Origin: an uncultured Actinomycetes bacterium | Lineage (GTDB): Bacteria > Actinomycetota > Thermoleophilia > Gaiellales > Gaiellaceae | DNA length: 64,000 bases | Assembly (NCBI GenBank): GCA_963794045.1 | Contig: CAWCCJ010000007.1 | Span: 177,654 to 241,653 of the forward strand | Direction: 5' to 3' | Notes under the pieces: generated by a model | What the model was told of the DNA's origin: nothing | The model's input: the letters and a program-made list of their open reading frames with translations, nothing else | The model's database searches: none | Shown here: positions 1-47,540 of the stretch, one piece after another | Layout of the letters: the number at the start of each line of letters is the position of its first letter | Numbering within the stretch: the first letter of the stretch is position 1 | Position numbers and translations under genes: made by a program

Positions 1-170
1 ACGAAGCACCCGTGTCGACGGAGCTGATCTATCGCAACATGGAGCAGCACAAGACCGGCTACGCCGCCGCCGTCCTACGGGTCGTCGAACGGCTCGAGGC
101 CTACGAGCGCGACGAGGACGCCGGTCGGGCAACTGTCCCTCGCGAGATCCTCGACCACTACGGGCCATGA
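1..170 (+). CDS. 3' end of an upstream ORF (partial; function unknown)
   Basis: The open frame ...EILDHYGP ends in TGA at 168-170. This stop overlaps the next gene's ATG (167) as ATGA, which suggests the same operon. Confidence 0.4.
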   Translation, partial: EAPVSTELIYRNMEQHKTGYAAAVLRVVERLEAYERDEDAGRATVPREILDHYGP

Positions 171-1120
171 CCGTCGCGGCGCGAGCGGCCGAGGACATGC
201 CCGGAGGATGGGCGCGTCACCTCGCGCCGCCGCGCCAGGTGATCGTCGAGTCGTCGTCCCGCTGCAACTTCCTCTGCCCGCTCTGCCTCTGGCCGAAGAA
301 CAAGCGCCACGGATACCTCGGCCCGGAGACGTTTGCGCGCTTCATCGATGGCGCCGCGGCGACGACGGAGCTGCTGTGCTTCTCGGGTCGCGGCGAGCCG
401 ACGCTCAACCCGATGCTCTTCGACGTGCTCCCTCTCGCCGTCGCGTCCGGTGTCCAGACCGATCTCGTCACGAACGGGTCGAACCTTCTCCGCGATTTCG
501 ACGCCGTTCTCGAGTCCGGGATCGACAACCTCGTCGTCTCGATCGACGCCGACAACGCCGAGGATTACGCCCGCTACCGGGTGAACGGCGTCTTCGACGA
601 GGTGGTGGCCGGGATGACGCTGATCGCGGAGGAGAAGCGCCGCCGCGGCCTCGAGAAGCCGGCCCTGCGTACCTGCTCGGTCATGTTCGCGTACAACGCC
701 GACAAGCTCGACGACCTCCGCGCGTTCTTCGGCACGCTCGGGTTCGAGTCGTTCATCTTCAAGTCGGCGCATCTCGGGCATGGACAGCTCTCGGAGGAAA
801 CGCACGTGCTGGCCGAGCGCTGGCTGCCGCGCGACCCTGCACTCGTCCGCCCGCTCCACCCGTCGAGCCCACCGCAATGCGAGTTCCTCAGCCGGGCACA
901 CCTCCTCTGGAACGGAGACGTGTGCCGCTGCGCGATCGACCACGAGCGCATGGTTGTCGGCAACGTCAACGACCGTGGCTTCGCCGAGATCTGGGCGGGG
1001 GACGAGAGCCGACGCGTCGTCCGGACGATCGCGCGCGGCGAATTCGACAAGTGCCAGGACTGTGCGCTCAACGGGGCGCGCTCCGTGCGGGAGACGCCGG
1101 ACGGGGTGTTGCTCATATGA
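167..1120 (+). CDS. radical SAM enzyme with Cys-rich SPASM/twitch-like C-terminus
   Basis: CNFLCPLC (CxxxCxxC) lies near the N-terminus, with GRGEPTLNP and a TNGS glycine-rich region. The C-terminus carries C..CRC....C..C cysteines. Confidence 0.85.
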   Translation: MTVAARAAEDMPGGWARHLAPPRQVIVESSSRCNFLCPLCLWPKNKRHGYLGPETFARFIDGAAATTELLCFSGRGEPTLNPMLFDVLPLAVASGVQTDLVTNGSNLLRDFDAVLESGIDNLVVSIDADNAEDYARYRVNGVFDEVVAGMTLIAEEKRRRGLEKPALRTCSVMFAYNADKLDDLRAFFGTLGFESFIFKSAHLGHGQLSEETHVLAERWLPRDPALVRPLHPSSPPQCEFLSRAHLLWNGDVCRCAIDHERMVVGNVNDRGFAEIWAGDESRRVVRTIARGEFDKCQDCALNGARSVRETPDGVLLI

Positions 1121-2454
1121 GTGCCGGCGCCGATCGACTGCGGATCGCGTACGTCGCCTACGGCCTCGTCACGCCGGCGAGGGCGCACAACCTGCAGACG
1201 GTGAGCACCGTCGACGCGCTTGCGGCCCGCGGCCACGACCTCCTCTTCGTGAACTCGCTGTTGCCCGCGGACCGGGCGACGGACGATGCGCGGAACCTTC
1301 CCGCGTGTGAGACCATCCTCATTCCGGCGGGCAGGCTCTTCGAGCTGCACCGGCGGCTGACGCCGCACGGCCGCTTCTGGTCGCTTTTCGCAGATCGCTC
1401 GCTCTACGCGGTCAGAGCCCTACGGCGCGTTCGGGTCGCGAGATCGGACGCGATCGTCACGCGTGACCTCGTCGTGTGCCTCTGGGCAAGCGCGCTTACG
1501 AGGAAACCGGTGGCGTACGAGCTGCACTCCCTCGAGCAGGTCGTGTTCGCGGCGAGCGACGAGTCCGACCTCTCCGACGCCGAGCTCGTCCGACGCATGC
1601 GCGAACTCGCGGTGACGGACTTCGCGGGTCACCAGGACGACCCGTCGATGCTCGGACGCCTCTACAAGTGGTTCCTCCGCCGTCTCGAGGACGCCGCGCT
1701 TCGGCGCGCGACCGTCGTCCTTCCGCTGACGGCGACGGCGGGCCGTCGGCTCGGAGCCGACCACCGCGTCGCTCGATGGCAGAAGGTGCCCAGCGGACAT
1801 GCGCTGCCGACTGCGCCGCGCGTCGACAGGGCGGAGCTTCGTCGGCGCCTCGGCGTGCCGCTCGACCGTCCGCTCGCCGTCTACGCCGGTCTGTCGCTGA
1901 ACGGGAAGGGCATCGAGTCGCTCTACGCCGTCGCCGCGCAACTCGCGTCGGACTGCGCGATCGTCGTGGTCGGGCCTGACGACGAGCAATGCGCCGCACT
2001 CGCAGCGCTGCGCGACGAGCGCGGTCTCGGCACGCGCCTCCTCTTCGTCCCACGGGTCGAGCACGACCGGGTCGCCGACTACTTGCGCGCATGCGACGTC
2101 GGGCTGCTCCTCTATCCGCGCTCGCGCGCGCTCGGCGAGTTCGCGTCGCCGCTGAAGCTCCTCGAGTACCTGGCGTCCGGACTCCCGGTTGTCGCAACCC
2201 GCCTGGAAAGCATCGAGGAGATCGTGGTCGACGGCGTCAACGGGCGCCTCGTAACCGCCGGTGACGCGGCCGCTGCCGCTGTTGCCGTGGACGGCCTGCT
2301 CGGCGACGAGCGACTGCTCGCGCGCCTGGCGGCCGGCGCACAGGCGACGGCGGAGCACTTCACCTACGACCGTCGCGCCGAGCGCATCGACACCGCGGTT
2401 CGCGACGCACTCGTCCGCAGACCCGAGGAAGCTGCGCTGTGCATCTCAACGTAA
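1117..2454 (+). CDS. glycosyltransferase family 1 (GT4-like)
   Basis: The in-frame ATG at 1117 overlaps the upstream stop (ATGA). The C-terminal motif SPLKLLEYLASGLPVVAT..VVDGVNG is typical of the GT1 E-x7-E region. Confidence 0.8.
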   Translation: MSAGADRLRIAYVAYGLVTPARAHNLQTVSTVDALAARGHDLLFVNSLLPADRATDDARNLPACETILIPAGRLFELHRRLTPHGRFWSLFADRSLYAVRALRRVRVARSDAIVTRDLVVCLWASALTRKPVAYELHSLEQVVFAASDESDLSDAELVRRMRELAVTDFAGHQDDPSMLGRLYKWFLRRLEDAALRRATVVLPLTATAGRRLGADHRVARWQKVPSGHALPTAPRVDRAELRRRLGVPLDRPLAVYAGLSLNGKGIESLYAVAAQLASDCAIVVVGPDDEQCAALAALRDERGLGTRLLFVPRVEHDRVADYLRACDVGLLLYPRSRALGEFASPLKLLEYLASGLPVVATRLESIEEIVVDGVNGRLVTAGDAAAAAVAVDGLLGDERLLARLAAGAQATAEHFTYDRRAERIDTAVRDALVRRPEEAALCIST

Positions 2455-3284
2455 CGACGACGTCCGGGTGCCGAGGCCGCTGCGTCTACTGTCCCCAGGA
2501 CCGGTACTGGGAGGCGATGCGCGAGCGGCCGCGCTTTCTGACCGCGGTCGAGTTCGATGCCCTCGTCCCGATGCTCGAGGGCACGCACTTCGACGTGCTG
2601 AGCTTCGGCGGCTTCTCCGAGCCGTTCGACAATCCCGAGATCGTCGAGTTGTTGACGCTGGCGGGCGGGCTCGAGTTCGCCGACGAGGTCGTCGTCTACA
2701 GCAACGGCGAGGCGATGACGCCGGAGACGATGCGCGCACTGGAACGCGTGCGGCTCGGAACCGTCGACGTCAGCTGTCACGGCTTCGACCCAGAGACCTA
2801 TCGTCGGACGCGGTCGTTCGTCGACCCGGCCGCTGTGCGTGAGAACGTGATCCACCTCCTCCGCCACCGCGAGAACATCGACAACCTCGTCATCTCCGTG
2901 ACCGGGCCGTTCGCGTCCGACGACAGCCTCCATGAGCTCGAGGAGCTCTGTGCGTCCGGCGGCGCGACGCTCTTCCGGCGCGACCTCCACAACCGCGCCG
3001 GCCTACTCCGCATCGGGCGCACCGAGCGGAAGAGCGGCGCCTTTCGCTGCGCGAAGTTCGACTTCGAGAAGCCGGTCCTCGTGCCGGGCGGCGACCTGAG
3101 CCTTTGCTGCCAGGACTTCGCGCTCCAGTCCGTGATCGGGAACCTGCACGACCGGCCGTTCGCGGAGCTCATGGCCTCGTCGCCGCTTCGCACCCACGTG
3201 CTCGAGGTCGCCGCGGGCCGCCGCACCGATTCCGCGTTGGCCTGCTACGACTGCGTCTTCTGCGTGCCGGCGGCGGCGTCGTGA
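2439..3284 (+). CDS. radical SAM enzyme with Cys-rich C-terminal (SPASM-like) domain
   Basis: CRGRCVYC motif at residues 11-18. The C-terminus has CC....GN....CYDCVFC. The GTG start overlaps the GT1 stop by 16 nt. Confidence 0.8.
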   Translation: MHLNVTTTSGCRGRCVYCPQDRYWEAMRERPRFLTAVEFDALVPMLEGTHFDVLSFGGFSEPFDNPEIVELLTLAGGLEFADEVVVYSNGEAMTPETMRALERVRLGTVDVSCHGFDPETYRRTRSFVDPAAVRENVIHLLRHRENIDNLVISVTGPFASDDSLHELEELCASGGATLFRRDLHNRAGLLRIGRTERKSGAFRCAKFDFEKPVLVPGGDLSLCCQDFALQSVIGNLHDRPFAELMASSPLRTHVLEVAAGRRTDSALACYDCVFCVPAAAS

Positions 3285-4642
3285 CGTTCGTTGCGCTCGC
3301 CGTCTTCACCTTCTGTCTCGTCGTCGGAGCACGGAACCTTGTGCGCGTTGCGAGCTCGATCAGATGGATCGCGGCCGAGTCGCAGGCTCCGCTGCCCGAG
3401 GTCGTCGGGCCCGCGCCGAGCTTCGTCGTGCTCGTCCCGCTCCTCCACGAGCGTTCGCTCGTCGAGCAACTCGTGAGGCGGATGGGCGTGCTCGAGTCGA
3501 CCGACTGCAGGATCGCCTTCATCACGACCGCCCGCGAGGGCAGCGGCGACGGCTCGACCGCGCAGCTGCTGGAGCGCGTGCTCGCGCGGGAGGCCAACCC
3601 ACGCTTCGTGCATCTCCACTGCGACACGGGCAACGACACGAGCAAGGCGGACCAGCTGAACTTCGCGCTCGCGCAGCTCGGGCTCGCAGGCTCGCGCGAC
3701 TCGAGCATCTTCGTCGGCGTGTACGACGCGGACTCGTCGCCGGATCCGCGGACGCTGAGGTACGTCGCCGTGCAGGCCCGGCGGAGACCGGAGCTGGCGG
3801 CGATCCAGCAGGTGCCGCTCTACTTCCAGAACCTCCGCGACGTGCGCAGCGTGCGCGGCCTCTACCTGATGGCGCGCCCGCTCCACAACGCGCTGTTCGC
3901 GCTGACGGTCGAGGTGCCGTCCATGCGCCGTCAACCACGTGTCTTCGCGTCGCCGAGTCGGTCGCCCCTGCGCGTCTTCGGCGGCTGGCTGTCGCACGGC
4001 CTCGGACACGGTCAGTTCTTCCGTCTGGATCTCGTCTCGGAGTTCGGCGGCTTCCAGCCCCCGAGTTGCGATACACAGTTCGGTCACGCTCTCGCTTTCT
4101 GCGGCGTGCCGATCCACGCCCATCCGATGCTCGACGTGGGGGAGACGCCCGAGTCGGTGCGCGTGCTGATCCGGCAGGGTGTCGTCTGGTTCAACTCGAT
4201 GAACACGTTTTGGCGGACGAAGCGCTTCGTCGAGCGGCGCCCCGACTATCACAGGGCGGCCGCATGGCCGATGACCCTCCGCCTCGTGCATGCAAACCTC
4301 GCGTGGGCCGTCTATCCGCTGCTCTTCCTCGCGGTGCTCGTCTGGTCAACCGTTGCGGGGCAATGGCTTCTCACCGCCTACGGACTCGTCGCGTGGGGCG
4401 TCTACGTCGCGCCCCTCGCATTGATCCTCCGCCGTCTCGACCTGTGGCAGGAGATCTGCGCCGGATTCGAGCCGATCCGGCGCGTCTCGTTCCTGACGAA
4501 GGCCGGGATTGTCCTGCTCTTCGGCGCCGAGAAGCTCGGTTCTTGCATCAGCCCGTTCCTCTGGGGCTTCTACGCGCTCCGCGGCCGCGCGCGCCGTGAA
4601 CCGATCACGCTCCACAAGACCGAGCGGAGCGTCGAGGGGTGA
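3281..4642 (+). CDS. membrane-embedded glycosyltransferase family 2-like (synthase-type)
   Basis: GTG at 3281 overlaps the upstream stop (GTGA). It has an N-terminal TM helix, FVVLVPLLHE and VYDADSSPD (D-x-D-like) motifs, and several C-terminal TM helices. Confidence 0.7.
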   Translation: MTFVALAVFTFCLVVGARNLVRVASSIRWIAAESQAPLPEVVGPAPSFVVLVPLLHERSLVEQLVRRMGVLESTDCRIAFITTAREGSGDGSTAQLLERVLAREANPRFVHLHCDTGNDTSKADQLNFALAQLGLAGSRDSSIFVGVYDADSSPDPRTLRYVAVQARRRPELAAIQQVPLYFQNLRDVRSVRGLYLMARPLHNALFALTVEVPSMRRQPRVFASPSRSPLRVFGGWLSHGLGHGQFFRLDLVSEFGGFQPPSCDTQFGHALAFCGVPIHAHPMLDVGETPESVRVLIRQGVVWFNSMNTFWRTKRFVERRPDYHRAAAWPMTLRLVHANLAWAVYPLLFLAVLVWSTVAGQWLLTAYGLVAWGVYVAPLALILRRLDLWQEICAGFEPIRRVSFLTKAGIVLLFGAEKLGSCISPFLWGFYALRGRARREPITLHKTERSVEG

Positions 4643-6351
4643 AGCGCTACCTCTTCGGTCCGGTCGACGAGGAGTACGCGACCGCCAACCTGCAGGCGGA
4701 GCGTGAACGCGGCGCATGCAAGGTCTTTGGATTCGACGGCGGCGACGTCGCCGTCGAGCGCCGCGACACCTGGGAGGACGTGCTCGCGAGGCTCCCCCGC
4801 GGGTGGCGACCCGACTTCGTCGCCCTCTTCCTGGCGTATCGCGCGATCTCTCCCTGTCTGTGGGAAGCCCCGGTGCCCGTCGTCGGCCTCGCCGCCGACT
4901 GGAGCGTACTCTGGCACTGCTACCGACACGCGGTGCCGCGGTGCGACGTCGTCTTCACCGACCCTCGCGGCGTGCGCGTGCTGCGCCGCGCCGGCGCCGA
5001 GAACGTCCGCCACGGCAACCTGTTCGGTTGCGCACGCGCGCTCCTCGACGGCGCACCCGAAGTGGAGCGCGACATCGACGTGCTCTACGTCGGCAGCCTG
5101 CATCCCGCGCACAAGCTCGATCGCCTCTCGAGGATCGGCCGAATCGTCCGCGCGTGCTCCGACGACTGGAACGTCGTCGTCCGGAACGACGTCGACCGCA
5201 CCGAGTACCGACGTCTCCTTCTCCGCTCGCGCATCGTCTTCAACCACGCCGTGCGCGGCGAGTGCAACCTCCGCACGTTCGAGGCCGTCGCCGGAGGCGC
5301 ATTGCTCTTCCAGGAGGATGAGAACGAGGAGGTGAGGCAGTACCTCGCGCCGGAGCGCGAGTACGTCTCCTACACGGCCGAGACGCTCGAGCCGCTACTA
5401 GAGCGCTATCTCGAGGACGAGCCCGAGCGGGCACGGATCGCGAGGGCCGCCCACGAGCGCGCGGCGTCGTTCTCCTTCGATGCGCTGTGGCGGGAGATCG
5501 TCGAGCAGGTGCCGGACAAGCGCGTCCGGGCGGGGGGCGGCCCGGTCTCGCTCCGCCATCGGTACTGGGAGGCTGTCAGCGCGAGCACCGGTCCGGGCTG
5601 CACGGGCGAGGTCGAGGGGGAGCTCCTCGCGGAGCTCGACGGGCTGCCGCACGACGCAGAGCGGCACACGATGGCGGCCGTCGTCGGTGCGAAGCAGGCG
5701 CAGCGGCGTGGGACGTTCGACCGTGCCTGTGTCGCCGCGCTCGAGCATCACCTCCGCCGCGCCGTCGACCTCGCCCCCGCGCGGGCGATCTTCAGGCTCA
5801 ACCTGGCCGAGGCGCTCTGGCGGCTCGGGAGGGACGACGAGGCGGCTGCGGAGTGCCGACGCGCAATCCGCGACTGTGTGCTCGACGGCGACGATCTCGA
5901 TGCCGGCCATTTCCCGCCGGCGTTCGACACGTTTCGCGTCGAGTGGGAGCGAGCCGGGTGGGCACATGCGGGGTCGCCGGAGGACGAGCGCCGAGCGAAG
6001 GAGTCGCTCGTCCGCTGGCGTATGCACGGGATCCTCGCCGCCGTCGGCGACGACCTCGACCACTACCGCGCAGCCGTCGAGCTCCGCGACGACCTCTGGG
6101 TGAGCCACGCCGGCCTCGGGCGGGCGCTCGTCCGCCACAACAGGCCCGCCGACGGAAAACGGCACCTGCGCCGCGCGGCACACCTGAACCCCTTCGACGC
6201 CGATCTCCTGCCCGATCTGATCGACGCGTGCCGCCGTGCTGGCGACGTGGACGGCGAGCAGGATGCGGCCGAGGAGCTTCGACTCCTTCGGAGAGCCGCC
6301 GACACTACGAGCGGTCGCGATGTCGCCTATGCGCAGGAGGTCGTCGCGTGA
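4639..6351 (+). CDS. CgeB/DUF3880-like glycosyltransferase domain with C-terminal TPR-like repeats
   Basis: GTGA overlap with the upstream gene. The segment DIDVLYVGS...NLRTFEAVAGGALLFQED..REYVSY matches the CgeB-type GT fold. The C-terminal half is helical-repeat and Ala/Arg-rich. Confidence 0.65.
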   Translation: MKRYLFGPVDEEYATANLQAERERGACKVFGFDGGDVAVERRDTWEDVLARLPRGWRPDFVALFLAYRAISPCLWEAPVPVVGLAADWSVLWHCYRHAVPRCDVVFTDPRGVRVLRRAGAENVRHGNLFGCARALLDGAPEVERDIDVLYVGSLHPAHKLDRLSRIGRIVRACSDDWNVVVRNDVDRTEYRRLLLRSRIVFNHAVRGECNLRTFEAVAGGALLFQEDENEEVRQYLAPEREYVSYTAETLEPLLERYLEDEPERARIARAAHERAASFSFDALWREIVEQVPDKRVRAGGGPVSLRHRYWEAVSASTGPGCTGEVEGELLAELDGLPHDAERHTMAAVVGAKQAQRRGTFDRACVAALEHHLRRAVDLAPARAIFRLNLAEALWRLGRDDEAAAECRRAIRDCVLDGDDLDAGHFPPAFDTFRVEWERAGWAHAGSPEDERRAKESLVRWRMHGILAAVGDDLDHYRAAVELRDDLWVSHAGLGRALVRHNRPADGKRHLRRAAHLNPFDADLLPDLIDACRRAGDVDGEQDAAEELRLLRRAADTTSGRDVAYAQEVVA

Positions 6352-8231
6352 CCACGTCGACGTTCGCGATCGGTACGGGCCGCTGCGGGACGCACCTGCT
6401 CGCCGAGCTGTTCGAACGCGATCCGGGAATCGTCGTCCGGCACGAGGCCGATCCCGAGGCCGATGCCTACGATCGCTATCGCGCGTGGAACGGCAGGTCG
6501 TTCGATTCGGCCGCTCTGGTCGCGAGGAAGCGGCGGGCAGTCGCGGCTGCCGCGGCGGCCGGAGCCAGCTATCTCGAGGCCAGCGCCTATCTCACACTCG
6601 CGGTGGCGCCGCTCTTCGGAGCAATGCGCTCCCGCTTCGTCGGCCTCGTCCGCGACCCGGCCGAGACGGTGGCCTCGTTCTGGGTCAAAGGCTGGTACGA
6701 CTCGGATCCGCACCCGTCGGAGCCGGTGCACGCGTTCAGCAGGCTCGAGCCAGCCGATCTCGAACGCTGGCGCTCGTTGACGCGGATCGGGAAGCTCGCC
6801 TGGTTCTGGCGCGCCTTGAACGAGCGGATGCTGGTCGAGCTCGAAGGTTTGCCCGACGACCAGACGATGCTCCTCCGCGTCGAGGACATCGACGTCGACG
6901 CATACCGCCGTGTCGCGACATTCATGGGCAGCGTCCCACGACTATCGCGGCTCCAGGTCGAGGCTGTGCTCGCGCGGAGGCCCGGAGCAGGGCCGACGCG
7001 GCGCGACCCGGCGACGTGGAGCACGCGCGAGCGTCGCGAGTTTCGGCACGAGGTCGGCGACCTTCCGGAGCGGCTCGGCTACTCGGTCGCGCGGGGGCCG
7101 ACGAGGGCTCGCCGCCCGCTTCGCCGACTCTTCCTCGTCGACGTGAGGCGGCGGGCGATCAACAACACGCCGTACGACGTGTACAAGCTCGCCGACTGCT
7201 TCGCGGGTGAGCCGCTCGACGTCGTCGACCTGCGGTTCTACGAGAACGTGGATCTACCGCCGAGCGAGACCGTTCACCTCTTCCTGGAGACGGCCGGGAC
7301 GTGGATGTGCTTCGACTGGGATCCGGCCCGGTTCCTGCGACGGCTCGACCAGCTGCTCGACCGCTATCCGCGCGTGACCGTCGTAGGCCCGCAGGCGCGG
7401 GCCCTCCGCGAGCTCGCGGGCCGCGACATCGCAGTTGTCGAGACGGTCGACTTCGCCGGCGCGGTCGCGCCGGGTCGAGAGCCGAAGGGTCCGATCTCCG
7501 GCGCCTGGCTCGAGGCCGCGCGCGACCGCCGTTACAACGGGCAGCTGCTCGAGGGCGGCGCGCTCCGACTCGGGCCGGCTTTTTCGATCTCGAACACGAT
7601 GAGCTGCCCGGTCGCGTGCGGCTTCTGCTACTACGGCCGGCCGGTGTACGGGCGCGGAACCGACTTCTCGCACACCCTCGCGGACATCGAGCAGGCACTG
7701 GGCCGCGGCCACCGGAACTTCTTCTTCATGGATCCAAACTTCCTGCGCGGCGCTCGCGATTTCGAAGCGCTCCGTCTCCTCCGTGCGCGTTGGGACGGCT
7801 TCGTGTACTACTGCCAGGTCTCCCCGAATTACCTCACCGAACAACGGCTCGAGCAGCTCGCGGCGAGCGGCTGTGCGGGGATGGTGATCGGCATCGAGAA
7901 CGAGCTGCAGATCGTTGCGAAGGGAACGCTCGACGATGCACGAGTGCGCGTCGAGAGAGTGCGGGCGCACGGGATGATCCCCACGCTCTTCTTCATGATC
8001 GACGGCCGAAGCGAGCTCGAGCCGCTCGTCGAGGAGTTCGAGGGGGTTCCTTTCCGGTACACGGTGCTGAACGACGCGTTCGCGGGCGACCGGTCGCTCC
8101 GCTCGATCGAGCGCGGGTTCGAGGAGAAGCGGCTGCGCGCCGAGGAATGCCGCGATCTGATCACGCGCCTCGAGCAGCGCCCCGATTTCCTCGGGCCTGT
8201 GCGGACCGGCGTCACGGCATACGCGCGTTGA
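6348..8231 (+). CDS. fusion protein: sulfotransferase-like N-domain plus radical SAM C-domain
   Basis: GTGA overlap with the upstream gene. The N-terminal GTGRCGTHLL resembles the PAPS 5'-PSB loop. The C-terminal half has CPVACGFC (CxxxCxxC) preceded by a Rossmann-like segment. There is no in-frame stop between the two halves. Confidence 0.7.
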   Translation: MTTSTFAIGTGRCGTHLLAELFERDPGIVVRHEADPEADAYDRYRAWNGRSFDSAALVARKRRAVAAAAAAGASYLEASAYLTLAVAPLFGAMRSRFVGLVRDPAETVASFWVKGWYDSDPHPSEPVHAFSRLEPADLERWRSLTRIGKLAWFWRALNERMLVELEGLPDDQTMLLRVEDIDVDAYRRVATFMGSVPRLSRLQVEAVLARRPGAGPTRRDPATWSTRERREFRHEVGDLPERLGYSVARGPTRARRPLRRLFLVDVRRRAINNTPYDVYKLADCFAGEPLDVVDLRFYENVDLPPSETVHLFLETAGTWMCFDWDPARFLRRLDQLLDRYPRVTVVGPQARALRELAGRDIAVVETVDFAGAVAPGREPKGPISGAWLEAARDRRYNGQLLEGGALRLGPAFSISNTMSCPVACGFCYYGRPVYGRGTDFSHTLADIEQALGRGHRNFFFMDPNFLRGARDFEALRLLRARWDGFVYYCQVSPNYLTEQRLEQLAASGCAGMVIGIENELQIVAKGTLDDARVRVERVRAHGMIPTLFFMIDGRSELEPLVEEFEGVPFRYTVLNDAFAGDRSLRSIERGFEEKRLRAEECRDLITRLEQRPDFLGPVRTGVTAYAR

Positions 8232-9562
8232 CTCCTGCGGTCGTCATCGGCGGCCTCGGGGTCAGCGGCCTCGGCTGCGCAGTCGAGCTAACGCAACGCG
8301 GTGTCGACTTCCTCGCGCTCGAAAAGGACGACCGACTCGGCGGACTCGCGCGCTCGGACACCGTCGACGGCTTCCGCTTCGACTACGGGCCGCATATCGT
8401 GCTCAGCGTCCCGCCGGGGCTGGACGAGCTGTTCGACGAGCTGCCCGGCCTCGACCTCCGTCCGCACCAGGGCCGCTCGTGCGTCGCGCTGCGCGACGTT
8501 CTCGCACGGGTCGTACCGGCTCCGTTCCAGCGCCACTTGAACTACCTCCCCCTCGCCGTCCGAGGGCGCCTCCTGCTCGAGCTCGCCGTGCGCAGCCGTA
8601 ACGGCGCGTATCCGGCAACGTACGGCGACGTCGTGCGTGCCCGCTGCGGGCCGACGGTGTTCGAGCTCTTCCTTCGCGGCTACGAGCGCAAGCGCCTGCG
8701 CTTCGACGTCGAGGACATCCCGCCCGACTGGACCGACCGCGTACCGAGCGCGTCGCTTCGCTCTGTTGCGCTCCCGCGTTGGGCCACATCGCGGCGCGAC
8801 GACGCCGGCGCGGAGACGCGTTTTGCGTACCCGCGGGCGGGCGGAATCGAGGCGCTCCCCCGTGCGCTCGCGCGACTCGTCGCAGCGGAAAGCATCCGGT
8901 GCGGAAGCGAGATCGTCGAGATCGACGCCGACGCGCACGAGGTTCGGCTTTCCAGCGGCGCGTCGATCGGCTACGAGGAGCTCGTCCTGAGCCTGCCGCT
9001 GCCCGAGATCGTGCGGCTGCTGCGCAAGCCCCCGGCAAGCGTCGTCGCGGCCTCGCGGGATCTCGTCTACACGTCCATCCACGTCGTGAGCTTCGGCCTC
9101 GAAGGAGCGGTCGAGACGCCGTGGACGTTCATGCGGTTCCCCGGTGACCGGGTGCCGTTCTATCGCGTCTCCGTCCCGTCGCTGTACGCGGACGACGGCG
9201 CACCGGCGGGCCACGCCGTCGTCGTCGCGGAGGTCAGCCACCACCCGACAAGGCACCGCGTCGATGCGGGCGCGGCGCTTCGCGGCGCACGCGACGGGCT
9301 ACGCGAGCTCGGCGTTCTGGGCCGCAGCGCCCACGTCGTCGTCGAGCGCGTCAACGACATCCGCTACGGCCATGTCGTCTACAACCACCGCACCCGCGCC
9401 GCGGTCAGCGACGTGCTCGACCACCTGGGCCGGCACTCCATCTCGACCTGCGGCAAGTACGGCCGGTGGCAGGACATGCTCATGACGGGCTCGATCCTCA
9501 ACGGGATGGACGTCGCGCGCCGGATCGATCAGAGGGCACGCAGCAGCTCCGCGACCGTGTGA
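8228..9562 (+). CDS. FAD/NAD(P)-binding oxidoreductase (UDP-galactopyranose mutase / HemY-like family)
   Basis: The TTG start overlaps the upstream stop (TTGA). It has an N-terminal dinucleotide fold (VVIGGLGVSGLGCA..LEKDDRLGG), FAYPRAGGIEALP, and a C-terminal CGKYGRWQDM motif. Confidence 0.75.
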   Translation: MTPAVVIGGLGVSGLGCAVELTQRGVDFLALEKDDRLGGLARSDTVDGFRFDYGPHIVLSVPPGLDELFDELPGLDLRPHQGRSCVALRDVLARVVPAPFQRHLNYLPLAVRGRLLLELAVRSRNGAYPATYGDVVRARCGPTVFELFLRGYERKRLRFDVEDIPPDWTDRVPSASLRSVALPRWATSRRDDAGAETRFAYPRAGGIEALPRALARLVAAESIRCGSEIVEIDADAHEVRLSSGASIGYEELVLSLPLPEIVRLLRKPPASVVAASRDLVYTSIHVVSFGLEGAVETPWTFMRFPGDRVPFYRVSVPSLYADDGAPAGHAVVVAEVSHHPTRHRVDAGAALRGARDGLRELGVLGRSAHVVVERVNDIRYGHVVYNHRTRAAVSDVLDHLGRHSISTCGKYGRWQDMLMTGSILNGMDVARRIDQRARSSSATV

Positions 9563-10500
9563 TCGAGCGGTGCGCGCACCTTCAGCATCGTCGTCGAGGC
9601 GAGCAGCGCCTCGAGGAAGCGCATCCTCGACCGAACGAACTCCCGCGTGTCGAGGCTCGGGACGAAAAACTCCTCCGATCTCGGGCCCAGCGCGATTGGC
9701 ACGAACCCAGTGCCGCGTATGCGATTCGAGATCTCGTCGTAGACGGCCGCGACTGCCCTAAACGCGTCGCGGCTCCTGATGTCGGGCGGTATTCGCGCTG
9801 CGGGCGCGCGCGGTCCCCGCTCGTCGAGCGCGAGCAGTACGAAGACGGAAACGGGAAGGTCCGGTCCGGCGACGTCGATGCCGAGCTCCGACGGGTCGAC
9901 CCGTCGTTTCGGCCTCGAGGCCGCACCGTCATCGAAGAACTTCGCCGCAAGCGCCTCCGAGTACATGCGCAGGCTACTGCCGCGCAGATTGAAGGACGGG
10001 TCGCCGTGGAGCAGCCGCGGCGCTCCGTCGCGGAGCCCGACGCGCACGCGGTTATTGGCGAAGAGCTGGAAGCCGTGCGTCAGGCAGAGGTCGAGCGACG
10101 TGATGGTCTTGCCCGACTCGGACGGGCCGAAGAGCACGATCGTCTTCCCATCGCGTACGACCGCAGAAGCGTGCACCAGGTACTCGCCGCGGCGCTGGCG
10201 GACGAGCTCCGACAGATAGAAGAGCCACATCGCGAGCACCGTGGTCTCCTCGATGTCGGGCCACGGCGCGGTGAACGTGCAGATGCCCGATTCGGGCAGA
10301 TACTCCGTCTGCCACGCCGTGTCGTCCACGTAGCGGAGTGTCGGGATCGTCTCCGCGGAGACGGTCGGAGTCACCGTAAAGCGATAGAAGGCGTCGCGGA
10401 ACGTCGTTTCGAGCATCCACTCGAGCCGCTCGAACGCCGCGGCGCACTCGGTCACGAACCCGACGGGGCAGGAGTCGATCGTCACTCGCGCCGTCTTCAC
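9529..10500 (-). CDS. HPr kinase-related P-loop kinase-like protein
   Basis: GPSESGKT Walker-A follows LVHASAVV.., as in HprK C-domain relatives. The GTG start overlaps the upstream stop (GTGA at 10497-10500). Confidence 0.7.
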   Translation of the reverse strand: MKTARVTIDSCPVGFVTECAAAFERLEWMLETTFRDAFYRFTVTPTVSAETIPTLRYVDDTAWQTEYLPESGICTFTAPWPDIEETTVLAMWLFYLSELVRQRRGEYLVHASAVVRDGKTIVLFGPSESGKTITSLDLCLTHGFQLFANNRVRVGLRDGAPRLLHGDPSFNLRGSSLRMYSEALAAKFFDDGAASRPKRRVDPSELGIDVAGPDLPVSVFVLLALDERGPRAPAARIPPDIRSRDAFRAVAAVYDEISNRIRGTGFVPIALGPRSEEFFVPSLDTREFVRSRMRFLEALLASTTMLKVRAPLDHTVAELLRAL

Positions 10501-11105
10501 GCCGTCCTCCTCAGCGCGAAGTCGAGAAAGGTGTACTGAAGCCCGAGCCACTCCACGGTCGTCTCCTCGCAGTCGTAGTCGATCGACCCGGTCGGGTGGA
10601 ATCCTGAAGCACGCGCCTGCATGAGCAGTGTCTCGATGCCGTTGCGAGTGAAGATGCGCACGGGAGCCCCGAACTTCGTGCGGTCGCCCGTGTCGATCGG
10701 CTCGCTCCAATAATCGGTGGAGACGACGACGTACCCGCCCGGCGCTATCACGCGGTGCATCTCGCGGAAGAAAGCGTCGGCGTCGACGCCGTGCTCGATG
10801 ACGCTCAGGCAGATCGCCGCGGGAAACCGCGAATCCGGGTACTCCGAGTGCAGGCCGTCGCCCTTGGTGTAGCGGACACGGCCGTCGTGCGTCATGAAGT
10901 CCGCCTGAAGCGCTGGGTTGATCACGTCGACCTCGAACCCCCAGTGTGCAAGCCACGTCGAGACATGCGAGTAGTCCGGAACGCCGCCGACATCGAGGAT
11001 GGGGCCGGGTGGATCGACGTTGTCGCGCAGGAACTCGCATGCGCGCAACGCGTCCCACGACTTCGCAGGTGGGCGGTCGTATGCGGGAAGCCCGGCGGCC
11101 TGCAC
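10497..11105 (-). CDS. class I SAM-dependent methyltransferase
   Basis: Motif I-like ILDVGGVPD and motif post-II/III (AAICLSVIEH ... IAPGGYVVVS). Confidence 0.8.
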   Translation of the reverse strand: MQAAGLPAYDRPPAKSWDALRACEFLRDNVDPPGPILDVGGVPDYSHVSTWLAHWGFEVDVINPALQADFMTHDGRVRYTKGDGLHSEYPDSRFPAAICLSVIEHGVDADAFFREMHRVIAPGGYVVVSTDYWSEPIDTGDRTKFGAPVRIFTRNGIETLLMQARASGFHPTGSIDYDCEETTVEWLGLQYTFLDFALRRTA

Positions 11106-11152
11106 GGTCGCCCGAGCACGTTCCCATTCGTCGGCCCGCTTGAGCGTGCCGT

Positions 11153-13261: not shown

Positions 13262-13262
13262 C

Positions 13263-41855: not shown

Positions 41856-41935
41856 GGCTCCCCCGAAAAAGGGCCGTTCAGATCCTCCCGACACAGAGGG
41901 ATCTTGCGCGCGCTGCGATACCCTGTCGCGCACCC

Positions 41936-42026
41936 GGAGAAGTGGCCGAGTGGCTGAAGGCGGCGCCCTGCTAAGGCGTTAGGTGGCTGAATGGCTGCCT
42001 CGAGGGTTCGAATCCCTCCTTCTCCG
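41936..42026 (+). tRNA. tRNA-Ser (anticodon GCU)
   Basis: GGAGAAGTGGCCGAGTGG... with anticodon loop CTGCTAA, a long variable arm and the T-arm GGGTTCGAATCCC. Confidence 0.9.
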
Positions 42027-42660: not shown

Positions 42661-42793
42661 GGATCGAGCATGCACGCCCTTTTGCACGAGAAGACTCGTA
42701 GAAAACCCTGATCGTGGAGCAGGGAAAACCCAGATTTGGCCGGCGCCATTTCTTCCTACGTTCGTTGGAGAAAACCAGACGACCGGAGGAGCA

Positions 42794-43954: not shown

Positions 43955-43973
43955 TTCTGCGGGTCGCCGAAAA

Positions 43974-44014
43974 GGGAGAAGCCCCGCCGGAGCGGGGCTT
44001 CTCCCTTCTGATTT
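43974..44014. terminator. bidirectional rho-independent terminator (nirK / tRNA-Ser GGA)
   Basis: GGGAGAAGCCCCGC-CGGA-GCGGGGCTTCTCCC hairpin flanked by an A-run upstream and a T-run downstream. Confidence 0.7.
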
Positions 44015-44036
44015 CAAGCGCTCGAACACAGCGAGC

Positions 44037-47537: not shown

Positions 47538-47540
47538 CTC

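What the first reader, a model, noticed from the sequence alone, without database searches (positions are those of the whole stretch)
1..9562. Translationally coupled operon combining three radical-SAM domains, three glycosyltransferases, a sulfotransferase-like domain and a UGM/HemY-like flavoenzyme
Eight consecutive plus-strand ORFs are joined by overlapping stop/start codons: ATGA at 167 and 1117, a 16-nt overlap at 2439, GTGA at 3281, 4639 and 6348, and TTGA at 8228. This implies one co-translated unit that continues upstream of the window. The content is rSAM/SPASM-like, GT1, rSAM, membrane GT2 (synthase-like), CgeB-like GT with TPR, sulfotransferase-like fused to rSAM, and an FAD enzyme of the UDP-galactopyranose mutase/HemY fold. 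There is no Wzx/Wzy, no priming phosphotransferase, no ABC exporter and no recognisable peptide precursor. It therefore does not look like a standard Wzy-type or ABC-type polysaccharide locus or a standard RiPP locus. A synthase-type GT2 together with several radical-SAM tailoring enzymes and sulfation suggests a heavily modified, possibly sulfated, glycan or glycoconjugate made by an undescribed route.
Basis: partly seen in the sequence, partly recalled or inferred. Interest (0 to 1): 0.85.

Follow-up and report, generated by a model that had tools for sequence, protein, structure and literature searches.

The report
Radical-SAM-rich glycan synthase gene cluster
A rare, conserved 12-gene cluster from an uncultured soil actinobacterium (Gaiellaceae-like) pairs a hyaluronan/cellulose-synthase-like membrane enzyme with four radical-SAM enzymes, a sulfotransferase, a methyltransferase and a sugar-ring mutase, so it probably makes a heavily modified sugar polymer by a route not yet described.

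Summary
All seven complete plus-strand genes sit at the stated coordinates, are supported by third-codon-position GC (GC3) and are joined by the stated stop/start overlaps (7 of 7 junctions, against 3 of 21 same-strand pairs elsewhere in the window). The domain calls hold. The GT2 and sulfotransferase calls fall below Pfam thresholds but are confirmed by fold and motifs: g4 resembles hyaluronan/cellulose synthase, and g6 is a sulfotransferase domain joined to a TsrM/AprD4-like radical SAM (rSAM). g7 is closest to eukaryote-type UDP-galactopyranose mutase (UGM).

The unit is larger than reported:
- The cut upstream gene is an MTAP-like (methylthioadenosine phosphorylase-like) nucleoside phosphorylase.
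- A convergent minus-strand trio is co-conserved: a fourth rSAM, a methyltransferase and a P-loop protein (9529-12022).

The gene set recurs in about ten divergent soil and peat contigs, including a Gaiellaceae MAG with the same layout. Every locus that spans the relevant region keeps a core of three rSAMs, the phosphorylase and the membrane GT2. The signature rSAM family has only 12 representatives among 1.84 billion proteins. I found no precursor peptide, peptide-recognition domain, Wzx/Wzy, ABC exporter or matching literature.

Best reading (about 0.5): synthase-dependent assembly and export of a radically tailored, methylated, sulfated glycan containing a furanose sugar. The product is unknown. 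I rate it a new variant of a known kind, with moderate-to-high interest.

The parts
1..170 (+). g0: 3' end of an MTAP-like nucleoside phosphorylase gene (PNP_UDP_1 family). It is the first gene of the operon and is cut by the window edge.
   Evidence: The full 273-aa gene was recovered on contigs that carry the identical g1 (L001 1428-2249). Pfam PNP_UDP_1 scores 92.8 bits. The best NCBIfam match is MTAP, TIGR01694, at 154.5 bits, below its cut-off of 274.85. The gene overlaps g1 by ATGA. One such gene is seen in every related locus whose held sequence spans that part of the cluster.
167..1120 (+). g1: compact radical SAM enzyme (317 aa) with a C-terminal auxiliary-cluster domain of twitch/SPASM type.
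   Evidence: Pfam Radical_SAM 37.4 bits and SPASM 41.8 bits. C33/C37/C40 are invariant, as are C238, C255, C296 and C299, in 8 loci. The nearest solved relatives are PqqE, BlsE and the auxiliary-cluster region of BtrN. Only 32 residues precede the cluster motif, which leaves no room for a peptide-recognition (RRE) domain.
1117..2454 (+). g2: GT-B glycosyltransferase (Pfam Glycos_transf_1, the CAZy GT4 type).
   Evidence: Pfam Glycos_transf_1 74 bits and Glyco_trans_1_4 73.3 bits. It matches no NCBIfam equivalog above cut-off. It is seen in L005, L006, L010, L012, L020 and L022, and a Glycos_transf_1 gene sits at the edge of L008.
2439..3284 (+). g3: compact radical SAM enzyme (281 aa) with a Cys-rich, SPASM-like C-terminus.
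   Evidence: Pfam Radical_SAM 57.9 bits and SPASM 22.3 bits. C11/C15/C18 are invariant, as are eight further Cys: C113, C171, C204, C223, C224, C269, C272 and C275. It is part of the universal core.
3281..4642 (+). g4: membrane-embedded GT2 with a cellulose/hyaluronan-synthase-like fold (one N-terminal and about four C-terminal transmembrane helices).
   Evidence: The AF2 model has pLDDT 92.6 and pTM 0.91. The best Foldseek PDB matches are Chlorella virus hyaluronan synthase, PcManGT and BcsA, at E about 1e-11 with TMq 0.5-0.62 over about 480 columns. Invariant residues in 23 homologues are K122, D124 and Q125 (KADQLN), D149 and D151 (YDADS), D264, and Q299 with W303 (QGVVW). Pfam is below GA and there is no PDB hit at sequence level. 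It is part of the universal core.
4639..6351 (+). g5: CgeB-type GT-B half-domain (Glyco_trans_1_2) followed by TPR repeats.
   Evidence: Pfam Glyco_trans_1_2 59.4 bits and TPR_16 37 bits. PDB gives only weak TPR-level matches. It is present in type-A loci and absent from L008 and L022.
6348..7085 (+). g6, N-terminal domain: sulfotransferase fold.
   Evidence: Foldseek matches tyrosylprotein sulfotransferases, SULT7A1, and the CurM and SgdX2 sulfotransferases at E 1.6e-5 to 3e-4. Invariant motifs in 7 homologues are GTGRCGTH (5'-phosphosulfate-loop-like), R..RxPxxTVxS (3'-phosphate-motif-like) and H32-E33. Pfam Sulfotransfer_3 is below GA. This domain is a separate gene in L005, L006, L011, L012 and L013.
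7098..8231 (+). g6, C-terminal part: Rossmann-like domain plus radical SAM core (class-B-like, AprD4/TsrM type).
   Evidence: Foldseek matches TsrM at 2.1e-11, AprD4 at 3.4e-11 and MgmA at 2.5e-8. phmmer against PDB finds AprD4 at 2.4e-4. C170/C174/C177 of alignment A1 are invariant in 19 homologues, as is an LETAGTWMCFDW motif. The linker, residues 247-255, has low pLDDT. It is part of the universal core. The family has only 12 representatives at E<=1e-30 among 1.84 billion proteins.
8228..9562 (+). g7: FAD enzyme of the eukaryote-type UDP-galactopyranose mutase family.
   Evidence: PDB phmmer finds T. cruzi UGM at 1.3e-31 and A. fumigatus UGM at about 1e-27, over residues 1-339. The alignment keeps GGL.RS, D.G.H, PFQ, F.R.Y, FP..GG and PFYR. 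Pfam Amino_oxidase 70.9 bits. The protoporphyrinogen oxidase and CrtI matches cover mainly the FAD-binding N-terminus.
9529..10500 (-). g8: P-loop protein, weakly related to HPr kinase and ScmC. It is convergent with g7 and overlaps it by 34 nt.
   Evidence: The motif G-x-x-E-x-G-K-T, preceded by HASAV, is invariant in 6 homologues. NCBIfam HprK_rel_B scores E 2e-4. Precomputed Pfam ScmC hits on homologues are weak or faint and were not reproduced for this alignment set. The start is GTG at 10500, which overlaps the g9 stop as GTGA. It is co-conserved with g9 and g10 in L005, L010, L011, L012, L013 and L020.
10497..11105 (-). g9: class I SAM-dependent methyltransferase.
   Evidence: Pfam Methyltransf_11 35.5 bits and Methyltransf_23 29.7 bits. 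It shares 54-70% identity with counterparts in six related loci.
11153..12022 (-). g10: fourth radical SAM enzyme (289 aa) with one probable auxiliary cluster.
   Evidence: Pfam Radical_SAM 46.6 bits. C46/C50/C53 are invariant, as are C179, C185, C197, C232 and C235, in 7 loci. The start at 12022 is supported by alignment from residue 1 of the L010 homologue.
12155..14252 (+). Possible accessory pair, divergent from g10: a class-III aminotransferase (to 13261) and a Zn-dependent alcohol dehydrogenase (13263-14252). Whether they belong to the cluster is uncertain.
   Evidence: Pfam Aminotran_3 160 bits, ADH_N 76.2 bits and ADH_zinc_N 45.4 bits. NCBIfam matches are HemL/GntE-like and IolM-like, all below cut-off. 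The aminotransferase is conserved next to the cluster in the two closest relatives L010 and L020, and the dehydrogenase in L020; L010 ends inside the aminotransferase. More distant loci instead carry a DegT aminotransferase next to an extra rSAM.

Best explanation
This is a dedicated glycan (or glycoconjugate) biosynthesis cluster of the synthase-dependent kind, with unusually heavy radical-SAM (rSAM) tailoring. It has 12 genes in two convergent, translationally coupled units: g0-g7 on the plus strand and g10-g9-g8 on the minus strand.

Proposed flow (all inferred unless marked):
1. Cytoplasmic enzymes prepare unusual sugar units. The UGM-like flavoenzyme g7 contracts an NDP-pyranose to a furanose. 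The compact rSAMs that carry auxiliary clusters (g1, g3, g10) abstract sugar C-H hydrogens, giving oxidation to keto-sugars, epimerisation or C-C/C-O rearrangement, in the manner of BtrN and BlsE. The AprD4/TsrM-like rSAM g6b carries out a dehydration/deoxygenation or a methylation.
2. The GT4 enzyme g2 and the CgeB-like/TPR protein g5 add sugars.
3. The hyaluronan/cellulose-synthase-like membrane GT2 g4 elongates the chain and passes it across the membrane. This would explain why no Wzx/Wzy or ABC exporter is present.
4. The methyltransferase g9, the sulfotransferase domain g6a and possibly the P-loop kinase-like g8 decorate the product.
5. The MTAP-like phosphorylase g0 removes 5'-deoxyadenosine, the inhibitory by-product of the four rSAMs.

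Shown here: gene structure, folds and motifs, co-conservation and rarity. Not shown: every substrate, the order of the steps, and whether the product is a polymer.
For: Structure and coupling.

Folds and motifs:
- g4 has a full-length synthase-like fold including its transmembrane helices, and keeps the KAxxLN, DxD and catalytic Asp residues and the Q...W of QxxRW.
- g7 resembles UGM at E 1e-31 with active-site motifs retained.
- g6 combines a sulfotransferase fold and motifs with an AprD4/TsrM-like rSAM. Gene fusion in the Gaiellaceae-type lineage, against adjacent separate genes elsewhere, argues for functional coupling.
- g1, g3 and g10 are short (281-317 aa), have conserved auxiliary-cluster Cys and no RRE. 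g1 matches the sugar-acting BlsE and BtrN as well as PqqE.

Sugar-metabolism genes in variant loci:
- DegT aminotransferases sit next to an extra rSAM in L005, L011, L012 and L013.
- UDP-glucose/GDP-mannose dehydrogenase-family genes occur in L006 and L012.
- L022 carries an NDP-sugar nucleotidyltransferase, a 4,6-dehydratase-type gene and an epimerase/reductase.

By-product handling:
- A PHP-family protein most similar to 3',5'-bisphosphate nucleotidase (which would clear PAP, 3'-phosphoadenosine 5'-phosphate) sits in type-B loci. This fits PAPS-dependent sulfation.
- 5'-deoxyadenosine inhibits rSAM enzymes and is cleaved by MTA phosphorylases (PMC6079011, PMC8102628; found).

Conservation: the core of g1, g3, g6b, the phosphorylase and g4 is present in every locus that spans the relevant region, at 45-80% identity, despite rearrangement.

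No exporter, flippase, polymerase or priming transferase is seen in the cluster or its flanks.
Against: - No product or activity is known for any of these proteins or for close homologues.
- g4's QxxRW motif lacks the Arg, and its TED motif reads CDT. Its fold is also shared by the archaeal mannosyltransferase PcManGT, ranked second, so polymerisation is not established.
- g4, g6a and g6b are below Pfam gathering scores.
- There is no documented precedent for rSAM tailoring of a synthase-made polysaccharide.
- The top sulfotransferase fold matches are protein tyrosine sulfotransferases. TPR and HprK-like modules are typical of protein-directed enzymes.
- The phosphorylase is conserved as tightly as the catalytic core, which may mean it acts in the pathway rather than clearing a by-product.
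Confidence: 0.5

Rival explanations
1. The cluster makes a non-polymeric, secreted pseudo-oligosaccharide or nucleoside-type secondary metabolite (aminoglycoside-like logic). rSAM dehydrogenase, dehydratase or epimerase steps on sugars or cyclitols would be followed by transamination, glycosylation by the GT4, methylation and sulfation. g4 would add one sugar at the membrane or act in export or self-resistance.
For: - g6b's best solved relatives include AprD4, the paromamine 1,2-diol dehydratase.
- g1 matches BlsE and the BtrN auxiliary-cluster region. Its four conserved C-terminal Cys are spaced C-x16-C...C-x2-C, close to what I recall for BtrN.
- Extra-rSAM + DegT modules in relatives parallel BtrN + BtrS. 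The Zn-ADH + aminotransferase pair beside the window cluster parallels NeoA + aminotransferase. Both parallels rest on my own knowledge of butirosin and neomycin biosynthesis.
- GT4 enzymes are used in 2-deoxystreptamine pathways.
Against: - No sugar-phosphate cyclase (2-deoxy-scyllo-inosose synthase), deacetylase, resistance methyltransferase or phosphotransferase was recognised.
- The membrane synthase-like GT2 belongs to the invariant core, which is atypical for aminoglycoside or nucleoside clusters.
- CgeB/TPR and UGM-like genes fit envelope glycans better.
Confidence: 0.17
2. The cluster builds a membrane glycolipid head group by hopanoid-like logic. One rSAM would add the 5'-deoxyadenosyl radical to a lipid or other alkene (as HpnH and MqnE do). 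The MTAP-like enzyme would remove adenine by phosphorolysis (as HpnG and MqnB do). The membrane GT2 would glycosylate the resulting polyol (as HpnI does). The class-B-like rSAM would rearrange the sugar (as HpnJ or calditol synthase does).
For: - The invariant core is three rSAMs, a PNP-family phosphorylase and a membrane GT2. In composition this mirrors HpnH/HpnG/HpnI/HpnJ (my own knowledge of bacteriohopanepolyol biosynthesis).
- The phosphorylase is retained in every locus that spans that region, even when the cluster is rearranged, with a divergent copy (34-35% identity) in L005 and L011.
- Type-B loci add two more nucleotide-handling enzymes: a PHP phosphatase and a uridine-kinase-like P-loop kinase.
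Against: - NCBIfam holds a model for HpnG, and to my recollection also for HpnH, HpnI and HpnJ. The only match to any of these was a 22.5-bit partial hit of g0 to HpnG (cut-off 187.1). g1, g3, g4 and g6 gave no Hpn match.
- No squalene/hopene cyclase or other lipid-synthesis gene lies in the cluster or its flanks.
- The UGM-like, GT4, DegT and NDP-sugar genes point to nucleotide-sugar chemistry.
Confidence: 0.13
3. The cluster modifies a ribosomal peptide or a protein (RiPP-like, or a protein glycosylation/sulfation system). SPASM rSAMs would cross-link or epimerise it, a TPST-like enzyme would sulfate Tyr, an HprK-like kinase would phosphorylate Ser, and the TPR-GT would glycosylate it.
For: - SPASM domains are found mostly in peptide maturases, and g1 and g3 hit many such families weakly.
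- The best sulfotransferase fold matches are tyrosylprotein sulfotransferases.
- g8 is weakly related to HprK and ScmC, components of a presumed peptide-modification cassette.
- TPR repeats are typical of protein binding.
Against: - No conserved small ORF lies in or beside the cluster in any locus, and the cluster has almost no intergenic space.
- No PqqD/RRE domain or protein, peptidase or typical RiPP exporter is present in the window-type loci.
- The segments N-terminal to the rSAM motif are 10-45 residues, too short for an RRE.
- UGM-like, DegT, UDP-sugar dehydrogenase and NDP-sugar genes, and a synthase-fold GT2, are unexplained by a peptide product.
Confidence: 0.08
4. The genes are merely neighbours without a shared pathway.
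For: None specific. The overlaps alone are common in high-GC genomes.
Against: The same gene families stay together across about ten loci at 45-80% identity despite rearrangements, strand changes, one gene fusion and different flanking genes.
Confidence: 0.02

Closest known systems
Synthase-dependent exopolysaccharide systems (hyaluronan synthase, BcsA cellulose synthase, PgaC/IcaA, NodC-type GT2)
   Same: g4 has the same membrane-embedded GT-A-plus-transmembrane-helix fold (Foldseek E about 1e-11, TMq up to 0.62) and most of the signature residues. As in those systems, there is no Wzx/Wzy or ABC exporter.
   Different: - Sequence identity is only 11-16%, and Pfam is below threshold.
- QxxRW is degenerate (QGVVW).
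- There is no c-di-GMP PilZ domain, BcsB-like partner or periplasmic/outer-membrane TPR porin.
- No known synthase system carries four to six rSAM enzymes.
Nod-factor (lipo-chitooligosaccharide) pathway: NodC with NodH sulfotransferase and NodS methyltransferase
   Same: The logic is the same: a synthase-fold GT2 makes a short glycan that cytoplasmic sulfotransferase and methyltransferase enzymes decorate (own knowledge).
   Different: There are no NodA or NodB homologues and no homology beyond fold level. The rSAMs, the UGM-like enzyme and the phosphorylase have no counterpart.
Sugar-acting radical SAM enzymes of aminoglycoside and nucleoside antibiotic pathways (BtrN, AprD4, BlsE)
   Same: These are the nearest solved relatives of g1 (BlsE, and the BtrN auxiliary-cluster region) and g6b (AprD4). 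They share the compact size, the auxiliary clusters and the absence of an RRE. rSAM + aminotransferase modules occur in relatives.
   Different: The similarity is remote (E 1e-4 to 1e-6 at sequence level). The cluster lacks cyclitol synthase and other aminoglycoside hallmarks, and has a membrane synthase-like GT2 at its core.
Bacteriohopanepolyol side-chain genes (HpnG, HpnH, HpnI, HpnJ)
   Same: The composition is the same: a PNP-family phosphorylase, rSAMs, a membrane GT2 and a class-B-like rSAM.
   Different: No NCBIfam Hpn model is matched above noise, and there are no lipid-synthesis genes nearby.
Sulfated bacterial exopolysaccharide loci (for example synechan xss of Synechocystis, PMC8205485) and the uncharacterised sulfotransferase-GT-anSME-like rSAM genes near the C. 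jejuni HS:19 capsule locus (PMC8743553)
   Same: A sulfotransferase is encoded together with glycosyltransferases. In C. jejuni HS:19, a SPASM-type rSAM and a second rSAM + methyltransferase pair also lie beside capsule genes.
   Different: To my recollection of PMC8205485, which I did not read here, synechan uses a Wzx/Wzy route without rSAMs. The C. jejuni genes are only annotated, belong to an ABC-type capsule context and show no shared gene order with this cluster.

Membership tests
Radical SAM superfamily (PF04055) | A CxxxCxxC motif that binds the [4Fe-4S] cluster | tested here: met
   g1 C33/C37/C40, g3 C11/C15/C18 and g10 C46/C50/C53 are invariant in 7-8 loci. The g6b motif is invariant in 19 homologues.
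Radical SAM superfamily (PF04055) | Score at or above the Pfam gathering threshold (29.5 bits) | tested here: inconclusive
   g1 scores 37.4, g3 57.9 and g10 46.6, so these pass. g6 scores 24.9 and fails. The g6 model nevertheless matches the TsrM and AprD4 structures at E about 2e-11.
SPASM/twitch auxiliary-cluster domain (PF13186) | A C-terminal Cys-rich domain at or above the gathering threshold, with conserved Cys ligands | tested here: met
   g1 scores 41.8 and g3 22.3 against GA 21.5. The conserved C-terminal Cys number 4 in g1 (twitch-like), 6-8 in g3 and 5 in g10. The full seven-Cys SPASM pattern is not evident in g1 or g10.
RiPP radical-SAM maturase systems | A precursor peptide gene in or next to the cluster | tested here: not met
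   No conserved small ORF was found in the intergenic space of 10 loci, and the cluster has almost no intergenic space. A precursor encoded elsewhere cannot be excluded.
RiPP radical-SAM maturase systems | An RRE/PqqD-like peptide-recognition domain, fused or stand-alone | tested here: not met
   No PqqD or RRE family hit was found in any cluster protein. The segments N-terminal to the motif are 10-45 residues long.
Processive membrane GT2 synthases (cellulose, hyaluronan, chitin and PNAG synthase type) | A GT-A domain fused to a transmembrane helix bundle of cellulose-synthase-like architecture | tested here: met
   The AF2 model has pLDDT 92.6. The Foldseek top matches are CvHAS, PcManGT and BcsA.
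Processive membrane GT2 synthases (cellulose, hyaluronan, chitin and PNAG synthase type) | The signature motifs D, DxD, (T)ED and Q(Q/R)xRW | tested here: inconclusive
   KADQLN, YDADS, the D264 of CDT, and Q299...W303 are invariant. The Arg of QxxRW is absent (QGVVW), and TED reads CDT. The motif definitions come from my own knowledge.
Processive membrane GT2 synthases (cellulose, hyaluronan, chitin and PNAG synthase type) | Processive polymerisation coupled to translocation | not testable with these tools
   This needs in vitro or in vivo assays. The same fold occurs in PcManGT, an archaeal mannosyltransferase that is not a polymer synthase (rank 2).
PAPS-dependent sulfotransferases | Sulfotransferase fold with a 5'-phosphosulfate-binding loop and a 3'-phosphate-binding motif | tested here: met
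   Foldseek matches TPST1/2, SULT7A1, and the CurM and SgdX2 sulfotransferases. GTGRCGTH and R..RxPxxTVxS are invariant. The Pfam and PDB sequence searches fall below threshold.
UDP-galactopyranose mutase (eukaryote-type clade) | FAD Rossmann fold plus UGM-specific motifs, including the two substrate-binding Arg | tested here: met
   Solved T. cruzi and A. fumigatus UGMs match at E 1.3e-31 and about 1e-27. The FxRxY and PFYR arginines and the D.G.H histidine align. The residue roles are recalled from the literature, and the C-terminal third is not aligned. The bacterial-type UGM equivalog TIGR00031 is not matched (16.7 bits against a cut-off of 303.75).
Wzx/Wzy-dependent or ABC-dependent polysaccharide loci | A flippase and polymerase or an ABC exporter, a chain-length regulator and a priming phosphoglycosyl transferase | tested here: not met
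   None was found among the cluster genes or in the flanks of the window and L020. One distant variant, L022, has an adjacent ABC transporter.
Hopanoid side-chain cluster (HpnG/H/I/J) | Matches to the NCBIfam Hpn models | tested here: not met
   The only match is a 22.5-bit partial hit of g0 to HpnG (cut-off 187.1). g1, g3, g4 and g6 gave none.
S-methyl-5'-thioadenosine phosphorylase (MTAP) | Equivalog-level match to TIGR01694 | tested here: not met
   The score is 154.5 bits over the full length, against a cut-off of 274.85. The protein is therefore MTAP-like, but its specificity is not established.
Anti-phage defence systems (PADLOC) | A match to a defence-system protein model beyond the generic rSAM core | tested here: not met
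   The only hits are pVip matches to the N-terminal cluster-binding segments of g1 and g10. The other five proteins gave none.

The most novel reading that the evidence does not exclude
The cluster encodes carbohydrate chemistry that has not been described before. The sulfotransferase and the AprD4-like rSAM are always adjacent in the type-A loci and are fused in this lineage. They may act as one catalytic couple: sulfation would install a leaving group, and the radical enzyme would expel it to deoxygenate or rearrange a sugar. This would parallel the 'activating' sulfotransferases CurM and SgdX2, but with radical rather than polar chemistry. In addition, or instead, the invariant MTAP-like enzyme may be a true pathway step that removes adenine from a radical-adenosylated intermediate. 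Either way the product would be a synthase-exported glycan remodelled by four to six radical enzymes.
Probability: 0.12. Interest if true: 0.85.

Novelty: new variant of a known kind. Interest (0 to 1): 0.6.

Why it matters
Radical SAM enzymes are known to tailor small-molecule sugars (aminoglycosides and nucleoside antibiotics) and peptides. I know of no polysaccharide pathway built around a hyaluronan/cellulose-synthase-like enzyme that carries four to six of them, and the literature searches found none.

If the reading is right, the cluster would add several things:
- A new branch of bacterial glycan chemistry, possibly including C-H functionalised, deoxygenated, furanose-containing and sulfated units. 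To my knowledge, sulfated bacterial polysaccharides with a characterised pathway are rare outside cyanobacteria.
- A natural sulfotransferase-rSAM fusion to study.
- A concrete biosynthetic trait for the uncultured soil Gaiellales, which are abundant but poorly understood.

The extreme rarity and sharp boundaries of the signature families make them clean targets for enzymology.

Tried and rejected
- Sequence searches of the PDB gave nothing useful for g4, for the sulfotransferase-domain profile, for the g8 profile or for g10. They gave only TPR noise for g5.
- A Pfam scan of the g8 alignment did not reproduce the precomputed ScmC hint, so g8 is reported only as a P-loop protein weakly related to HprK.
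- PADLOC returned only generic viperin-core hits, so the defence reading is rejected.
- The genome-collection scan with g6 found one relative (L005). The metagenome scan with the g6b profile found six loci, mostly short. Most synteny evidence therefore came from exact-protein look-ups.
- The nearest outgroups of g4, at 30% identity, sit in unrelated, uninformative contexts.
- The small-ORF screen was noisy in lower-GC loci because my GC3-based gene caller failed there. Every cross-locus hit lay inside a known gene in another frame.
- Five literature searches found no described counterpart. One query was rejected for syntax.
- An Rfam scan found only tRNAs, with no riboswitch near the cluster.
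- HemY (protoporphyrinogen oxidase) and CrtI readings of g7 were considered and rejected. They score 36-50 bits, mainly on the FAD-binding N-terminus, against 113 bits over 339 residues for UGM.
- The source organism of the window could not be named directly. The Gaiellaceae label comes from the closest annotated relative.

Full report
OBSERVATION. The junctions are exactly as reported: ATGA at 167 and 1117, a 16-nt overlap at 2439-2454, GTGA at 3281, 4639 and 6348, and TTGA at 8228. Third-codon-position GC (GC3) is 0.85-0.95 in those frames and changes frame at each junction. An independent GC3-based caller returned identical coordinates. All 6 complete junctions overlap (7 with the cut gene), against 3 of 21 same-strand pairs elsewhere in the window (p about 3e-4). 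The unusual 16-nt overlap is real: a shorter g3 would lose the invariant CxxxCxxC motif.

EXTENT. The unit is larger than 1-9562.
- Upstream. Contigs that carry the identical g1 show the cut first gene to be a 273-aa PNP_UDP_1 protein. It is preceded by a divergent SRPBCC gene, so the operon starts there.
- Downstream. A convergent minus-strand unit overlaps the end of g7 by 34 nt. It comprises g10 (a fourth radical SAM enzyme, or rSAM, 11153-12022), g9 (a methyltransferase, 10497-11105) and g8 (a P-loop protein, 9529-10500, whose start overlaps the g9 stop as GTGA).
- Co-conservation of the trio. It is placed identically in L010 and L020. In L005 and L011 it lies on the same strand as the rest of the cluster. 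In L012 and L013 it is rearranged but still adjacent.
- Uncertain members. A class-III aminotransferase and a Zn-dependent dehydrogenase at 12155-14252 neighbour the cluster only in the closest relatives, so their membership is uncertain.

PROTEINS.
- g0 is MTAP-like (methylthioadenosine phosphorylase-like): 154.5 bits over its full length, below the equivalog cut-off.
- g1, g3 and g10 are compact rSAMs of 281-317 aa. Each has an invariant cluster motif and 4-8 further invariant Cys, which implies auxiliary clusters. g1's nearest solved relatives are PqqE, BlsE and the auxiliary-cluster region of BtrN.
- g2 is a GT4-type GT-B glycosyltransferase.
- g4 had only sub-threshold GT2 hits and no PDB sequence hit. 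A 23-sequence alignment gave an AlphaFold2 model with pLDDT 92.6. That model matches Chlorella virus hyaluronan synthase, PcManGT and BcsA over its whole length, membrane helices included. KADQLN, YDADS, D264 and Q299...W303 are invariant, but the Arg of QxxRW is missing.
- g5 is a CgeB-type half GT-B domain followed by TPR repeats.
- g6 is a two-domain protein. Its model (pLDDT 80, with a disordered linker at residues 247-255) matches sulfotransferases in the N-terminal domain. It matches the class-B-type rSAMs TsrM, AprD4 and MgmA in the C-terminal two-thirds. The motifs resembling the PAPS-binding loops (GTGRCGTH; R..RxPxxTVxS) are invariant, as is the rSAM CxxxCxxC.
- g7 matches the solved eukaryote-type UDP-galactopyranose mutases (UGM) at 1e-31 and retains UGM motifs. 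The HemY and CrtI matches are weaker and cover mainly the FAD-binding N-terminus.
- g8 has an invariant Walker-A-like GxxExGKT motif preceded by HASAV, and a weak match to HprK-related kinase B.

CONSERVATION AND DISTRIBUTION.
- Rarity. The word-indexed search of 5.8 billion proteins found 26 relatives of g6 and 32 of g4. Identity drops sharply from about 46% to 30% for g4. An exhaustive HMM search of 1.84 billion representatives with the g6b profile found 12 hits at E<=1e-30, only four of them full length. Below those come two weaker hits (102 and 90 bits), then generic class-B rSAMs at under 80 bits.
- Type A loci. These are the window, L010, L020, L005, L006, L011, L012 and L013. They share g0-g10, with rearrangements. 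L005, L006, L011, L012 and L013 carry extra modules: an additional rSAM (next to a DegT aminotransferase in L005, L011, L012 and L013), and in L006 and L012 a UDP-sugar dehydrogenase. These loci therefore reach five or six rSAMs.
- Type B loci. L008 and L022 keep g1, g3, g6b, the phosphorylase and g4 at 45-58% identity. They add a PHP phosphatase most similar to 3',5'-bisphosphate nucleotidase and a uridine-kinase-like P-loop kinase. L022 also carries GT4, a sulfotransferase fused to a pyruvate-kinase-barrel domain, a UGM-like gene and NDP-sugar synthesis genes.
- Core. The invariant core is therefore three rSAMs, the phosphorylase and the membrane GT2.
- The g6 fusion. It occurs only in the Gaiellaceae-type lineage (six protein clusters at 61-100% identity). 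In L005, L006, L011, L012 and L013 the two halves are separate adjacent genes.
- Taxonomy and habitat. L020 is an NCBI MAG labelled Gaiellaceae bacterium, with the same layout and the same flanking genes as the window. Where the sample names say, the other loci come from forest, grassland and farmland soil; the peat origin of L006/L007 is my reading of the JGI sample, not stated in the output. One MAG is labelled only 'uncultured proteobacterium'.

MECHANISM (inferred). The most economical reading is a synthase-dependent glycan pathway.
- Nucleotide sugars are remodelled in the cytoplasm by the UGM-like mutase, which makes a furanose.
- The auxiliary-cluster rSAMs perform BtrN/BlsE-type C-H abstraction, leading to keto-sugars, epimers or decarboxylated or rearranged sugars. 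In relatives the extra rSAM is paired with a DegT aminotransferase, which mirrors the BtrN/BtrS logic known from butirosin (own knowledge).
- GT4 and the CgeB/TPR protein add sugars.
- The synthase-fold GT2 elongates and exports the product. This accounts for the missing Wzx/Wzy and ABC machinery.
- The methyltransferase, the sulfotransferase and perhaps the P-loop protein decorate the product.
- The MTAP-like enzyme clears 5'-deoxyadenosine, an inhibitor of rSAM enzymes that MTA phosphorylases cleave (PMC6079011, PMC8102628).
- The PHP phosphatase of type-B loci would likewise clear 3'-phosphoadenosine 5'-phosphate, the sulfotransferase by-product.
I put this at about 0.5. The folds, motifs and co-conservation are shown here; every substrate and the polymeric nature of the product are not.

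RIVALS.
1. A small pseudo-oligosaccharide or nucleoside-type metabolite (0.17). The AprD4, BtrN and BlsE affinities favour it. The invariant membrane synthase-like GT2 and the lack of cyclitol or resistance genes count against it.
2. A glycolipid head-group pathway with radical adenosylation and phosphorolytic adenine removal, as in HpnH/G/I/J (0.13). The composition of the core and the tight retention of the phosphorylase favour it. The absence of any Hpn-model match or lipid gene counts against it.
3. Peptide or protein modification (0.08). The SPASM domains, the TPST-like fold hits, the HprK-like protein and the TPR repeats favour it. Against it: no conserved small ORF, no RRE/PqqD, very short rSAM N-termini and abundant sugar-nucleotide genes.
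4. Chance adjacency is excluded by co-conservation through rearrangements.

COMPARISON AND NOVELTY. Every part belongs to a known superfamily, and the overall kind, a synthase-type glycan cluster with tailoring enzymes, is known. The new features are these:
- The combination and number of rSAMs.
- The sulfotransferase-rSAM pairing and fusion.
- A eukaryote-type UGM in this context.
- A phosphorylase inside the invariant core.
- Very small, sharply bounded protein families.
No literature counterpart was found. The nearest is a purely annotated sulfotransferase-GT-anSME-like grouping beside the C. jejuni HS:19 capsule locus (PMC8743553). I rate the finding a new variant of a known kind, with interest 0.6. 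It is a well-defined, rare and enzymologically attractive cluster, but its product is unknown and uncharacterised clusters in MAGs are common. The most novel reading not excluded is sulfate-activated radical sugar chemistry and/or an adenosylation/de-adenination step (probability about 0.12, interest about 0.85 if true).

Noticed in passing
window 12155-14252 (+); compare L011 1027-3370, L012 2645-4656, L013 406-2460, L005 5739-8184: Gaiellaceae-type loci have a Zn-dependent dehydrogenase plus a class-III aminotransferase beside the cluster. Other lineages have an extra rSAM next to a DegT aminotransferase. This may be a non-orthologous replacement of an 'oxidise, then transaminate' module, reminiscent of NeoA versus BtrN.
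   Followed up: partly
L022 14791-16695 (protein P0026); L012 10001-11563 and L013 7514-9073: The sulfotransferase has different fusion partners in different lineages. In L022 it is fused to a pyruvate-kinase barrel domain. In L012 and L013 it carries an unassigned C-terminal extension of about 250 aa. In the window it is fused to the class-B-like rSAM.
   Followed up: no
L008 11919-13345 and L022 8539-10007: Type-B loci insert two genes between the phosphorylase and the membrane GT2: a PHP-family phosphatase (best match 3',5'-nucleoside bisphosphate phosphatase, 152.5 bits, below cut-off) and a uridine-kinase-like P-loop kinase. With the MTAP-like gene, that makes three nucleoside/nucleotide-handling enzymes in a row.
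   Followed up: partly
L005 4278-5726: The g4 homologue of the MFD01248 MAG is split across frames (4278-4739 and 4743-5726, with tblastn pieces in different frames). This is probably an assembly frameshift rather than a true pseudogene.
   Followed up: no
window 9529-9562: g7 (+) and g8 (-) converge and overlap by 34 nt at their 3' ends, leaving no room for a terminator between the two units. L010 and L020 have the same arrangement.
   Followed up: partly
window about 41900-56400: Three tRNA-Ser genes (41935-42028, 44035-44124, 44180-44269) precede a stretch with G+C dips to 0.63-0.64 and few confidently callable genes. Among the few called genes here, by my reading of their translations, are what look like sugar ABC-transporter fragments and a DNA-ligase-like ORF. 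ARAGORN also reports a dubious permuted 'tmRNA*' at 44178-44955 that Rfam does not support. This may be an integrated island or a degraded region.
   Followed up: no
L008 16973-19828: A 951-aa protein with many CarboxypepD_reg/Big_1 repeats and a PDZ-like hit is encoded inside the type-B cluster. It may be a surface or secreted partner of the product.
   Followed up: no
L005 13523-14344 and L011 8445-9266: In these two loci the cluster's phosphorylase is a divergent copy (34-35% identity to g0) placed after g7 instead of at the head of the operon. The function is retained even though both the gene and its position changed.
   Followed up: partly
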